A stretch of 64,000 nt of DNA from Trypanosoma brucei (Eukaryota): the NCBI GenBank assembly GCA_000002445.1, contig CP000071.1:32001-96000 (forward strand), read 5' to 3'. Shown here one piece after another: positions 1 to 3,000 of the stretch. A program made the position numbers. Numbering within the stretch: position 1 is the stretch's first letter; each line of letters starts with the position of its first letter.

Positions 1-3000
1 TAGAGAGAGTCTGTTAATCAAAGACTGATCTTTATGTGGCTAGAGCTAACTTTGAGAACAAAAAAATTGATGCCCGGCGGAATGTAAGCTGTCATTACTT
101 AGTGTACACCATTAAGCAGTTAAATCATATCAACAAAAAGTCATTACTTAAATTTGTAAACACTTTTTACCCTACTAGACATCTTAACTGCTTCCACTGA
201 CTTCTTTTCTTAATGTTTTATGTAATTTTCTAACTGATAATAAGCTCGTCTTAGTATGACAATAAAGTCTTATGAAGTGTATAGGAAGTATTTATCCAAT
301 AATAGGTTGTCTACCGTTTATTATTATGACTATTAATATACTCGTGTCGTTATACAGCCTGTTTGGTGAAGGCGAATACGTTTCACTTGAAATTGTAGAA
401 AATGAGTATATGAGATTTGTCTCCACTGATGTGAGGAGTATTTGGAAAGCCAAAGATTATTTGGTTGTAGCTGGAATACCTTCAATAGATAATGATGAAA
501 GATTTAGAAGGAGAAACTTACAGAGAGAAACGTGTTGGAGTTATCCTGAAGTTGCCCGACAGCCAAATAATTTCAGTGGAAAGTTGCTTATAGTATATGC
601 ACTTTCAGCACATACAAATAACAGTTGTGAGCTCAGACAAATTGTTGGAAAAGAGGCGGAGTTATATCAGAATGTTATTATTTTACCTGTTTGCGATGTG
701 AATCTAACAACGACTAAAAAAATTGGAGATGAAGGCAATTGGGGCTGGGAGGCAGAACTCACGATGAGTAGAAAAACATATTTGTGGTTTAAATTCGCAG
801 TAGAGATATTTAAACCAAGTAATCCCTATATAATGAAAGCAGATGATGACATATTTATGAGGGTGCCGTTGTATCTGCAGTATCTCGAAATATTGCCACG
901 AGAGAAATTAAATATGGGAAGGCCACTAGGTGAACTTGACGAGTCTGTTGGTAAACTGACGTGGTATGTTGTTGGCTACGCCAATACGCTTTCAAGAGAT
1001 GTCGTAAAAGAAATAGTTGGCTTTTCTGAAATTTTCAAACTGTTAAGCAGAAAGATCAGTTTTCGAAACTTTGACAAATATATTAAATATGCCGCATTGA
1101 ACGAGGATATTATGGTGGGGGAGGTATTAAGGCACAAAATGAAACTTGAAGGTTTATTAACTGTGGATATCCAAGAATGTCACTATGTGATGCACGTGAA
1201 AAGACCATTACATAAATTTGTAAGAGAGAATCCTAATCTTATTGTTTTCCACCACATTGCTGAAGGGGAATACATATGGTTAATGAAAATATTTGAGAAT
1301 ACAACGGCAGAACAAATATCTGGGCCAGCACAAAAAAAGGATAACGCGATTCTGGCAGGAGTTCAGCTGCCGGCCGCTGATGGCGGCAGCTGGACAGGCA
1401 GCCAGGAAAACGGTACAACCCTAACACGTTGCAGGCTGAGAAACTCAAACGCGGCAAGCTTTCACAACGAAACGGCGCTAGCCATTTGCAATATTTTTGA
1501 AGAACAACAATTAGTTGACATGTGGATGCGCCCGAACCAATTCGGACCGATGGCATTGCTCTTGCTGTCTCTAGCAACAAAGCACGCAACAGCAAACCTT
1601 GCGGACGGCGTCAACAGACGAGAGCGTGCTGCCCTTTGTGTTTTTGTATCGATGGCGGGGTCAACAGTGGAGGTACCGGAAGTACCCTAACTAAAATCCG
1701 AAGACTATAAATTAATTCAAGCACTCAACCTCAGCACAGCACCTGATGACTGGAAAAATATGTTTTACACAGACGCCTCAAAAGGGAAAACTCATTCAAC
1801 ACCAACAGAAGCTGGCAAGGCCACAGCGGGATATGCTGACTACTTGGGGGACTGGCTGGAAGTCGCCAAAGAGGTCGCTGCAAAGCCTTTGGCAGGAAAA
1901 CTGGCGACCCTGAAAGCGGCCGAGCTAACCGGCGTGCAGAAACAACTGGCGTCGCTAAAAATGCAGCAAATCGCAGCACGAGCGATGGCAATCAAAACGG
2001 CATTCCCAAAACTCTCGAGCAGCGCGGCGACCCTAACTTCGGAAACCGCACTAAAGAAAATAAAAAAAGCAGCTTTCGGCAGCGATAAACTAACGGCAAA
2101 AACAGCAACGAGCGACGCAGCTTTCGGAGGCGACACGGGGTCAGAATCGAGGGCAACGGTGTGCGAAGCGGCCACAGGCGCAAAGAAGGCGGCGACCGCT
2201 ACGGCGGCTCTAGTATGCTTATGCTTAAAGCCCACAGGAGGCGCCGAGAACGGGCCAACCAACGGCGCTTGCACCAAAAAAGGGGCAGGATCAACGGGAT
2301 GGCAGTCAAGTACATCCAAGGCGCCGGACAACGACATCAAGGAGCTAACGCAAACATGCCCCATAACAACCGCACAACCGGTCCGAAGCACCCACCTGAA
2401 AGCAGCACTAGCAGCTCTAAACGACCTCATACACTCCGACAACACCGACGGCTATCTAGGCGCACGGCTAAGCTGGGACTGAAACGGAAGCTCAGGCAAC
2501 GGCATATGTGTGAAATTCACCGGCTACAACGCAGCTGGCAGCACAGCATTCGCCAAGCTACCATCGTAGGTGAACGACAACAGCTAGCAAAGGACCTGGA
2601 AGAAAGAGAAACCAAAAAAGCACTGGCCGACCACCTGAATTCTCTAATAAATCTCGAGGCAAAGGCGGCAGAAGAGACAATAAAGTTGAGCGGCGCCGAA
2701 GCAAAGCTGAATGGACCGCTGCCGGCAGGGCTGCCCACCAAAGTGCCACCCATAACTACAGTAACATGCGAGGTGCACAATAAGTCCAAAACAAAGTGCT
2801 TAGAAGCGCAGTGCAAATGGGGAGGTAAAAAGGATGATGACGGCCCATGCCAAGCTAGCGAGAAACAAGTTTCAGAGCAGACAAAGCAAGGTGGAAGAGA
2901 TACAACAACAGGTGGAGATGTCAAGAAAGAGGAGAAATGTACTGGTAAAGACGAGAAAACATGCGGCGGCACTCAGGGCTGCAAATGGGAAGGAAAAGAA

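What the first reader, a model, noticed from the sequence alone, without database searches (positions are those of the whole stretch)
272..1690. Chimeric ORF: GT67-like beta3-glycosyltransferase catalytic region fused in-frame to VSG-derived sequence
A 472-aa intact ORF starts with a type-II TM anchor and the three beta3GT signature motifs (RxxxxRxTW-like, DDD, EDxxxG). After about residue 345 it reads through into sequence typical of a VSG N-terminal domain (…GSWTGSQENGTTLTRCRL…ALCVFVSMAG). It then abuts further VSG fragments. This looks like a recombination junction between a subtelomeric glycosyltransferase gene and a VSG pseudogene, and could encode a truncated glycosyltransferase with a foreign C-terminus.
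Basis: partly seen in the sequence, partly recalled or inferred. Interest (0 to 1): 0.5.

Follow-up and report, generated by a model that had tools for sequence, protein, structure and literature searches.

The report
Frameshifted glycosyltransferase gene beside VSG pseudogene
The long reading frame is real, but it is not a recombinant fusion: a nearly complete trypanosome glycosyltransferase gene changes frame by one base in a run of seven A's just before its end, and then reads by accident into the start of the neighbouring surface-coat pseudogene.

Summary
ORF 272..1690 (472 aa) exists as described. Residues 1-356 are a genuine GT67/beta3-glycosyltransferase: an N-terminal membrane anchor, YIMKADDD, EDIMVG, a Pfam Galactosyl_T hit above cut-off, and 79-83% identity to T. 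brucei 'UDP-Gal or UDP-GlcNAc-dependent glycosyltransferase' fragments.

The fusion is not a recombination junction inside the gene. The family's own C-terminus, including a Cys invariant in all 11 relatives aligned, is still encoded at 1335-1370 (KRITRFWQEFSC). It lies one base out of frame, and the frame change falls in the A7 run at 1332-1338. Removing one A gives a 383-aa protein that aligns end to end with the family.

As written, the ORF skips that ending. It crosses a short GC-rich spacer with no detectable homologue and no VSG similarity. It then enters the ATG (1550) of a B-type VSG pseudogene in frame and stops at that pseudogene's first premature stop (1688). Only residues 427-472 are VSG-derived.

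I could not tell whether the extra A is a real mutation or a long-read homopolymer error. Two paralogous loci in T. equiperdum show the same GT-then-VSG order. Verdict: an ordinary subtelomeric gene or early pseudogene, of low interest.

The parts
272..1690 (+). The ORF as written (472 aa, ATG..TAA), frame with position mod 3 = 2
   Evidence: translation
272..1339 (+). GT67 glycosyltransferase coding sequence, residues 1-356, in the ORF frame. The membrane anchor is about nt 293-364, YIMKADDD is nt 827-850, and EDIMVG is nt 1103-1120.
   Evidence: Pfam PF01762 above cut-off. 79-83% identity to T. brucei GT fragments. All but one of the 115 HMMER hits have a best-matching stretch that ends at query residue <=356; the weak exception ends at 367. 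Motifs and hydropathy are. dN/dS is 0.17-0.21 against paralogues.
1332..1338 (+). A7 homopolymer where the reading frame of the homology changes: one base too many relative to an intact gene
   Evidence: In-frame homology ends at ...ISGPAQKK. Homology resumes in the +1 frame from 1335. Deleting one A gives a 383-aa protein that aligns end to end.
1335..1424 (+). Natural C-terminus of the glycosyltransferase in the +1 frame (position mod 3 = 0). KRITRFWQEFSC occupies 1335-1370 and includes the family-invariant Cys at 1368-1370. A 17-codon extension follows, to a TAA at 1422-1424.
   Evidence: tblastn of paralogue C-termini gives 8/12 identical for P0014 (E 2.7e-4), 7/15 for P0013 and 6/12 for P0001. 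Cys 366 is invariant in 12/12 sequences, and the 10 relatives whose tail aligns cleanly end 0-4 residues after it. DNA alignment to L001 is conserved through TGC/TGT. The first stop in this frame is at 1422.
1371..1549 (+). Spacer between the last conserved GT codon and the VSG ATG. It is GC-rich (52.5%), has no detectable homologue, and happens to be open in the ORF frame.
   Evidence: Composition is. There is no DNA match in the window, L001 or L002 and no protein or Pfam match. The 70-codon stretch 1340-1549, which includes this spacer, is stop-free in 3.5% of shuffles, and the other two frames carry 4 stops each.
1550..3078 (+). B-type VSG pseudogene. The ATG at 1550 is in the same frame as the ORF. 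There are premature stops at 1688-1690 and 2480-2482 and a frameshift near 2560. The C-terminal domain spans 2767-3069, and the final stop is at 3076-3078.
   Evidence: Pfam VSG_B and Trypan_glycop_C. Three-frame translation. Similarity to other VSG N-termini.
3132..3147 (+). Variant of the conserved VSG 3'UTR 16-mer (TGATATGTTTTAATAC, 2 mismatches)
   Evidence: 6 matches in the window against 0.12 expected
3294..3360 (+). 70-bp repeat that opens the next VSG cassette and marks the downstream end of the GT+VSG unit

Best explanation
The window opens with an essentially full-length GT67 (beta3GT-superfamily) glycosyltransferase gene. It lies 125-179 nt upstream of a B-type VSG pseudogene in a subtelomeric VSG array of a Trypanosoma brucei-group genome.

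The gene carries one base too many in an A7 run (1332-1338), 11 codons before the family's invariant C-terminal Cys. Read literally, translation leaves the true frame there and misses the conserved ending ...RITRFWQEFSC and the stop at 1422. It runs through a spacer that happens to have no stop in that frame and meets the VSG start codon in phase. It ends at the VSG pseudogene's first nonsense codon.

Shown:
- the ORF;
- GT67 membership;
- the out-of-frame natural C-terminus;
- the VSG identity of residues 427-472;
- the lack of any similarity for residues 357-426;
- the same GT-then-VSG order in two paralogous loci.

Inferred:
- If the extra A is real, the product lacks the conserved C-terminal Cys and carries 116 foreign residues that include a hydrophobic signal peptide. 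It is then most likely a non-functional, recently inactivated copy. Every other T. brucei-group copy found in the protein databases searched is also a fragment.
- If the extra A is an assembly error, the locus encodes a normal 383-aa enzyme.

Either way, no hybrid gene was created by recombination within the coding sequence.
For: - tblastn places the paralogue C-termini at 1335-1370 in frame 3, directly after the last in-frame homologous residue.
- The one-base-repaired 383-aa protein aligns over its whole length with 11 relatives. Cys 366 is invariant, and the 10 relatives whose tail aligns cleanly stop 0-4 residues after it.
- The DNA alignment with L001 is conserved through TTCTGGCAGGAG..AGCTGC, opposite L001's ..TGGCATGAGGCTAGCTGT TAA.
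- All but one of the 115 hits in the exhaustive HMMER scan end at query residue <=356; the weak exception ends at 367. None touches the tail.
- The tail has no hit in the word-indexed search of 5.8e9 proteins or in Pfam at E<=10.
- Residues 427-472 match VSG_B profile positions 2-41 and continue in the same frame into a VSG_B hit at E 9.5e-26.
- L001 and L002 show a GT stop codon followed 160 and 467 nt later by a VSG ATG.
- dN/dS of 0.17-0.21 shows the enzyme part was under constraint for most of its history.
- Indel errors that create artificial frameshifts are documented for long-read T. brucei assemblies (PMC8445201).
Against: - The repaired protein still has a 17-residue extension after the invariant Cys, which no relative shows. 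One base change therefore does not restore a fully canonical gene.
- The spacer is unusually GC-rich (52.5%, against 37-39% for the spacers in L001 and L002 and 32-48% for other VSG 5' flanks in the window).
- The spacer is open in only one frame (p about 0.035). This leaves room for a coding-sequence origin that I could not detect.
- The C-terminal match is short (12 residues).
- I had no reads, no orthologous locus from another strain, and no expression data.
Confidence: 0.85

Rival explanations
1. One reading: recombination inside the glycosyltransferase coding sequence at about residue 345 joined it in frame to VSG N-terminal-domain sequence, creating a true hybrid gene that lacks the enzyme's 3' end.
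For: GC content jumps near 1320-1370. In-frame protein homology stops at about residue 356. A VSG pseudogene follows. Subtelomeres are recombination-prone (PMC5853035).
Against: The enzyme's 3' end is not missing. It is encoded at 1335-1370 in the +1 frame, collinear with the rest of the gene. Residues 357-426 have no VSG similarity by Pfam, HMMER or BLAST.
Confidence: 0.04
2. An additional event, compatible with the main explanation: a real junction lies at about 1371, immediately after the last conserved GT codon. There a VSG cassette with about 180 nt of its own 5' flank replaced the glycosyltransferase's stop codon and 3' flank, for instance as the upstream end of a VSG gene-conversion tract.
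For: Ten of the 11 aligned relatives clearly stop 0-4 codons after the invariant Cys, whereas the window has CGG there and runs on 17 codons. GC is 36.6% for 272-1370 and 52.5% for 1371-1549, while the GT-VSG spacers in L001 and L002 are 37-39% GC. The VSGs downstream of the three GT copies are different genes: 31% identity or no detectable relation.
Against: With dS of 0.78-1.33 between the GT paralogues, non-coding flanks would be unalignable anyway, so loss of homology at the stop codon is expected without any junction. No donor sequence for 1371-1549 was found. The window and L001 VSGs are each other's best match among about 25 compared, which also fits an old co-duplicated GT-VSG block.
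Confidence: 0.35
3. The frame change is used by the cell. Slippage of the ribosome or polymerase on the A-run would yield both a normal enzyme and a C-terminally extended form.
For: A AAA AAG at 1333-1339 is a classic slippery heptamer in the ORF frame (sequence).
Against: That heptamer promotes -1 slippage, and the -1 frame stops at 1342. The natural C-terminus lies in the +1 frame. The paralogues have no A-run at this point. I know of no precedent in trypanosomes (own knowledge). The extension is unconserved spacer plus a pseudogene's signal peptide.
Confidence: 0.01

Closest known systems
Trypanosoma brucei GT67 family ('UDP-Gal or UDP-GlcNAc-dependent glycosyltransferases', the UGTs of Pereira & Jackson 2018), subtelomeric expanded lineages
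   Same: Type II membrane anchor; the Y(I,V,F)xKxDDD and ED(A/V/I/L/M)(M/L)x(G/A) motifs; a Pfam Galactosyl_T hit; an invariant C-terminal Cys (in the +1 frame); a subtelomeric location. The nearest proteins are T. brucei TREU927 XP_803396.1 (79%) and XP_844696.1 (83%). The next nearest are intact 378-aa T. congolense genes (45%) and T. cruzi genes (about 37%).
   Different: This copy is not in the protein collections searched. As written, it is frameshifted 11 codons before the conserved end. Even after repair it has a 17-residue C-terminal extension. Identity to the T. brucei GT67 clusters recovered on chromosomes 4 and 10 is only 34-36%. I did not establish its lineage number (1-7) or whether those clusters include any characterised enzyme.
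Frameshifted subtelomeric (pseudo)genes and apparent frameshifts in long-read T. brucei assemblies (Cosentino et al. 2021, PMC8445201)
   Same: A single-base indel, here in a homopolymer, alters an ORF's end and produces an ORF of unexpected length.
   Different: Here the shifted frame stays open by chance for 116 codons and joins the neighbouring VSG's start codon in phase, which mimics a fusion gene. Whether the indel is an error or a mutation was not testable.
Array VSG cassette (70-bp repeat, 5' flank, VSG, conserved 3'UTR 16-mer)
   Same: The downstream gene has a B-type N-terminal domain, a C-terminal domain, a 16-mer variant and a following 70-bp repeat. It is a typical pseudogene with stop codons and a frameshift.
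   Different: The usual anonymous 0.8-1.6 kb 5' flank is occupied by a glycosyltransferase gene. Only 125-179 nt separate that gene from the VSG ATG. L001 and L002 have the same layout.

Membership tests
GT67 / beta3-glycosyltransferase superfamily | Significant match to the Galactosyl_T profile (PF01762), with homologues named as UDP-Gal/UDP-GlcNAc-dependent glycosyltransferases | tested here: met
   25.3 bits (ORF) and 26.4 bits (repaired) against a cut-off of 23. 115 HMMER hits, 17 of them below 1e-30. Named relatives are listed.
GT67 / beta3-glycosyltransferase superfamily | Motif Y(I,V,F)xKxDDD, the metal/nucleotide-sugar DxD site (PMC9472816) | tested here: met
   YIMKADDD at residues 186-193. 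K189, D191, D192 and D193 are invariant in alignment A3.
GT67 / beta3-glycosyltransferase superfamily | Motif ED(A/V/I/L/M)(M/L)x(G/A) (PMC9472816) | tested here: met
   EDIMVG at residues 278-283. E278 and D279 are invariant.
GT67 / beta3-glycosyltransferase superfamily | 'WG' motif, the counterpart of mammalian (I/L)RxxWG (PMC9472816) | tested here: inconclusive
   WG at 157-158 lies in a conserved block (consensus GxWGxxAE). The R..TCW89 block has S rather than G after the W. I could not verify which site the review means.
GT67 / beta3-glycosyltransferase superfamily | Type II topology: a single N-terminal membrane anchor | tested here: met
   The hydropathy peak covers residues about 3-32. 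The segment is conserved in paralogue P0010. The structure model predicts a helix at 8-31, but that model has low confidence.
GT67 / beta3-glycosyltransferase superfamily | Conserved C-terminal end with an invariant Cys 0-4 residues from the stop | tested here: not met
   Absent from the 472-aa ORF as read. It is present at 1368-1370 only in the +1 frame, and there it is followed by 17 extra codons.
GT67 / beta3-glycosyltransferase superfamily | Glycosyltransferase activity and expression | not testable with these tools
   No expression or biochemical data were available. dN/dS of 0.17-0.21 shows only past constraint.
VSG (B-type) - applied to the ORF's tail | Match to the VSG_B N-terminal domain profile (PF13206) | tested here: inconclusive
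   Residues 431-470 match profile positions 2-41 at 16.2 bits, below the cut-off of 25. The same frame continues after the stop into a hit at E 9.5e-26 on profile positions 69-289. So residues 427-472 are the start of a VSG, while residues 357-426 have no match at E<=10.
VSG (B-type) - the downstream gene 1550-3078 | N-terminal domain, C-terminal domain (PF10659), 3'UTR 16-mer, and an intact ORF | tested here: not met
   The domains and a 16-mer variant are present. The reading frame is broken by stops at 1688 and 2480 and by a frameshift near 2560. It is a pseudogene.
Recombinant chimeric gene | Homology to parent 1 ends inside the coding frame where homology to parent 2 begins | tested here: not met
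   Parent-1 (GT) homology continues to its natural end in the +1 frame. Parent-2 (VSG) homology begins only at its own ATG, 179 nt further on.

The most novel reading that the evidence does not exclude
In at least three Trypanozoon loci (this window, T. b. equiperdum chr 9, and a T. equiperdum OVI contig), a GT67 gene that evolved under purifying selection sits inside a VSG cassette. In the two paralogous loci it lies between the 70-bp repeat and the VSG start, with no repeat between the two genes. If the same holds for the window, duplicative transposition of such a VSG from its 70-bp repeat would carry a glycosyltransferase gene into the active expression site as a co-transposed passenger. 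That could couple a glycan-modifying enzyme to a particular coat gene. The 472-aa read-through ORF would then be one decayed example of such a unit.
Probability: 0.05. Interest if true: 0.55.

Novelty: new member of a known kind. Interest (0 to 1): 0.15.

Why it matters
Mostly as a caution. A striking 'enzyme fused to coat protein' ORF turns out to be the by-product of one extra base in a homopolymer, next to a tightly packed neighbouring pseudogene. Annotation pipelines would call it either a 472-aa novel protein or a pseudogene, and neither label describes it well.

It adds one well-preserved copy to a GT67 sub-family. Every T. brucei-group member of that sub-family recovered from the protein databases searched is a fragment, whereas T. 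congolense keeps intact tandem copies. That bears on how subtelomeric glycosyltransferase copies arise and decay.

The recurrent placement of these copies inside VSG cassettes is a small structural observation and may deserve a genome-wide count.

Tried and rejected
- Exact look-ups of the 472-aa ORF, of the neighbouring 240-aa VSG ORF, and of TREU927 paralogues P0001, P0002 and P0011 found no contigs. The orthologous locus in another strain could therefore not be fetched.
- AlphaFold2 on the 7-sequence alignment gave pLDDT 37. It was unusable, and I ran no fold search.
- Self-BLAST of 1-3200 against the window and a sensitive BLAST of the spacer against the window, L001 and L002 found no donor for 1340-1549.
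- I first placed a breakpoint at about 1340 from protein alignments. I dropped it once the +1-frame C-terminus was seen.
- I considered the spacer as a hidden VSG fragment. Its coding-like GC, its single open frame (p 0.035) and a 37-residue match to the same VSG's N-domain at E 0.08 hint at this. Pfam and both large protein searches gave no support, so I left the origin as unknown.
- I considered that the GT-VSG pair was copied as one block. The window and L001 VSGs are mutual best matches (31%, 133 bits), but the L002 VSG is unrelated. This is unresolved.
- I rejected programmed -1 slippage on A AAA AAG because the natural end lies in the +1 frame.

Full report
**What is at the coordinates.** ORF 272..1690 is real: ATG to TAA, 472 codons, + strand. 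The window is a Trypanosoma brucei-group subtelomeric VSG array:
- About fourteen VSG genes or pseudogenes lie on the + strand.
- 70-bp repeats and the conserved VSG 3'UTR 16-mer recur along it.
- It contains a degenerate ingi-like retrotransposon.
- One ORF is identical to VSG 1125.5448, APD75530.1.

**The glycosyltransferase part.**
- Pfam Galactosyl_T is hit above its gathering score (25.3 bits against 23).
- The closest proteins are T. brucei TREU927 'UDP-Gal or UDP-GlcNAc-dependent glycosyltransferase' entries at 79% and 83% identity. Intact 378-aa T. congolense genes follow at 45%, and T. cruzi and T. rangeli genes at about 37%.
- The GT67 motifs listed in PMC9472816 are present: YIMKADDD at 186-193 and EDIMVG at 278-283.
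- An N-terminal hydrophobic anchor is present and is conserved in paralogue P0010.
- dN/dS against two paralogous DNA copies is 0.17 and 0.21, at dS 0.78 and 1.33. The enzyme part was therefore under purifying selection for most of its history.
- Subtelomeric expansion of these genes in T. brucei is already described (PMC5853035).

**Where the homology ends.** In the ORF's own frame, every relative stops matching by residue ~356 (...NTTAEQISGPAQKK). This holds in alignment A1 and in the exhaustive HMMER scan, where all but one of the 115 hits end at residue <=356. The one weak exception ends at 367, and nothing hits the tail.

All relatives end with a short conserved segment. In the T. brucei paralogues it reads W-x-E-x-S-C followed by a stop. 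That segment is present in the window at 1335-1370, but in the +1 frame, as KRITRFWQEFSC. It matches KEITAFWHECSC of P0014 at 8 of 12 positions (E 2.7e-4), and also matches P0013 and P0001. The DNA alignment with the T. b. equiperdum paralogue is conserved through the Cys codon, opposite that copy's TGT TAA.

The frame change falls in the A7 run at 1332-1338. Deleting one A yields a 383-aa protein that aligns end to end with 11 relatives. Its Cys 366 is one of only 18 invariant columns. So the gene is complete, and the ORF as written simply leaves the true frame 11 codons before the end.

**What the tail is.** After the A-run, the ORF frame has its first stop at 1688. The true frame stops at 1422 and the third frame at 1342.
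- Residues 357-426 (nt 1340-1549) cover the out-of-frame GT end plus a spacer. They have no Pfam match at E<=10, no hit in the 5.8-billion-protein search, and no DNA or protein match in the window or in the paralogous loci. A stop-free run of 70 codons occurs in 3.5% of shuffles. That is unremarkable for a feature picked because it is open.
- Residues 427-472 begin at the ATG (1550) of a B-type VSG. They comprise a signal peptide and then ...NRRERAALCVFVSMAG..., matching VSG_B profile positions 2-41 and other VSG N-termini in the window.
- That VSG continues in the same frame after the TAA at 1688 (VSG_B, E 9.5e-26). It has a second stop at 2480 and a frameshift near 2560. It also has a C-terminal domain (E 8e-22), a 16-mer variant at 3132, and the next 70-bp repeat at 3294.

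**Context from related loci.** Two paralogous loci could be fetched.
- L001 is from T. b. equiperdum chromosome 9. It carries a 70-bp repeat, then about 0.8 kb, then a frameshifted GT copy ending ...WHEASC-stop. After 160 nt comes a B-type VSG ATG, followed by the next 70-bp repeat.
- L002 is from T. equiperdum OVI. It has the same order, with a 467-nt spacer.

GT-then-VSG within one cassette is therefore recurrent and not peculiar to this window. The three VSGs are not one clade. The window and L001 VSGs are mutual best matches at 31% identity, while the L002 VSG is unrelated.

The window's spacer is 52.5% GC, against 37-39% in the two paralogous loci. The stop that 10 of the 11 aligned relatives clearly carry 0-4 codons after the Cys is replaced by CGG. 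A real junction at about 1371, just after the conserved end, is therefore possible, at roughly one chance in three. Divergence alone (dS 0.78 or more) would also erase flank homology.

In T. congolense the orthologues are intact tandem genes in a non-VSG context. All T. brucei-group members recovered from the protein databases are fragments of 158-345 aa.

**Real mutation or assembly error?** I could not test this. Indels are the dominant error in long-read T. brucei assemblies and are documented to create artificial frameshifts (PMC8445201). On the other hand, the paralogues are genuinely decayed.
- If the extra A is real, the product loses the invariant Cys and gains 116 foreign residues that include a hydrophobic signal peptide. 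It is then most likely an early-stage pseudogene.
- If it is an error, the locus encodes an ordinary 383-aa GT67 enzyme with a slightly long tail.

**Verdict.** This is a new copy of a known kind of subtelomeric gene, and interest is low. The most novel reading still open is that GT67 genes are passengers inside VSG conversion cassettes. I put that at about 5%.

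Noticed in passing
L001:9134-13065 and L002:1-4311 (compare window 1-3360): Paralogous GT67 copies lie inside VSG cassettes. The order is 70-bp repeat, about 0.8-1.0 kb, GT, 160 or 467 nt, B-type VSG, then the next 70-bp repeat. No repeat lies between GT and VSG. The window shows the same GT-then-VSG order, but any upstream repeat would lie before position 1.
   Followed up: partly
L003:1-7137 (T. congolense IL3000, CAEQ01001893.1): The closest non-brucei relatives (45% identity) are intact 378-380-aa genes in a tandem array beside inositol-phosphatase and Nup54 genes, not VSGs. 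All T. brucei-group members recovered from the protein databases are fragments of 158-345 aa.
   Followed up: partly
L002:765-2112 compared with window 15-1340: The T. equiperdum OVI GT copy looks mosaic. It is 80% identical in nucleotides to the window only up to window nt 922 and much more diverged after that (62% aa overall). This suggests recombination among GT paralogues.
   Followed up: no
window 21400-26330: A degenerate non-LTR (ingi-like) retrotransposon is inserted in the VSG array. Its reverse transcriptase and RNase H domains are split over several frames.
   Followed up: partly
window 33838-35268: An intact 476-aa ORF has a signal peptide, a Cys-rich C-terminal region and a GPI-signal-like tail that runs 18 codons past ...LLLAVLF. 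A 16-mer variant follows at 35309. It gets no Pfam VSG hit even at E<=10, so it may be an atypical or divergent VSG.
   Followed up: no
window 55463-56380: This 305-aa ORF is identical to 'variant surface glycoprotein 1125.5448' (APD75530.1), a name I recognise as the EATRO1125 VSG numbering. This points to an EATRO1125-like T. brucei as the source of the window.
   Followed up: partly
window 1333-1339: A AAA AAG in the ORF frame is a textbook -1 slippery heptamer. The -1 frame stops at 1342, and the gene's natural end is in the +1 frame, so this looks coincidental.
   Followed up: yes
window 1371-1549: The spacer upstream of the VSG ATG has the highest GC (about 52%) of nine VSG 5' flanks measured in the window (the others range from 32 to 48%). 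It is open in one frame only. Its origin is unexplained.
   Followed up: partly
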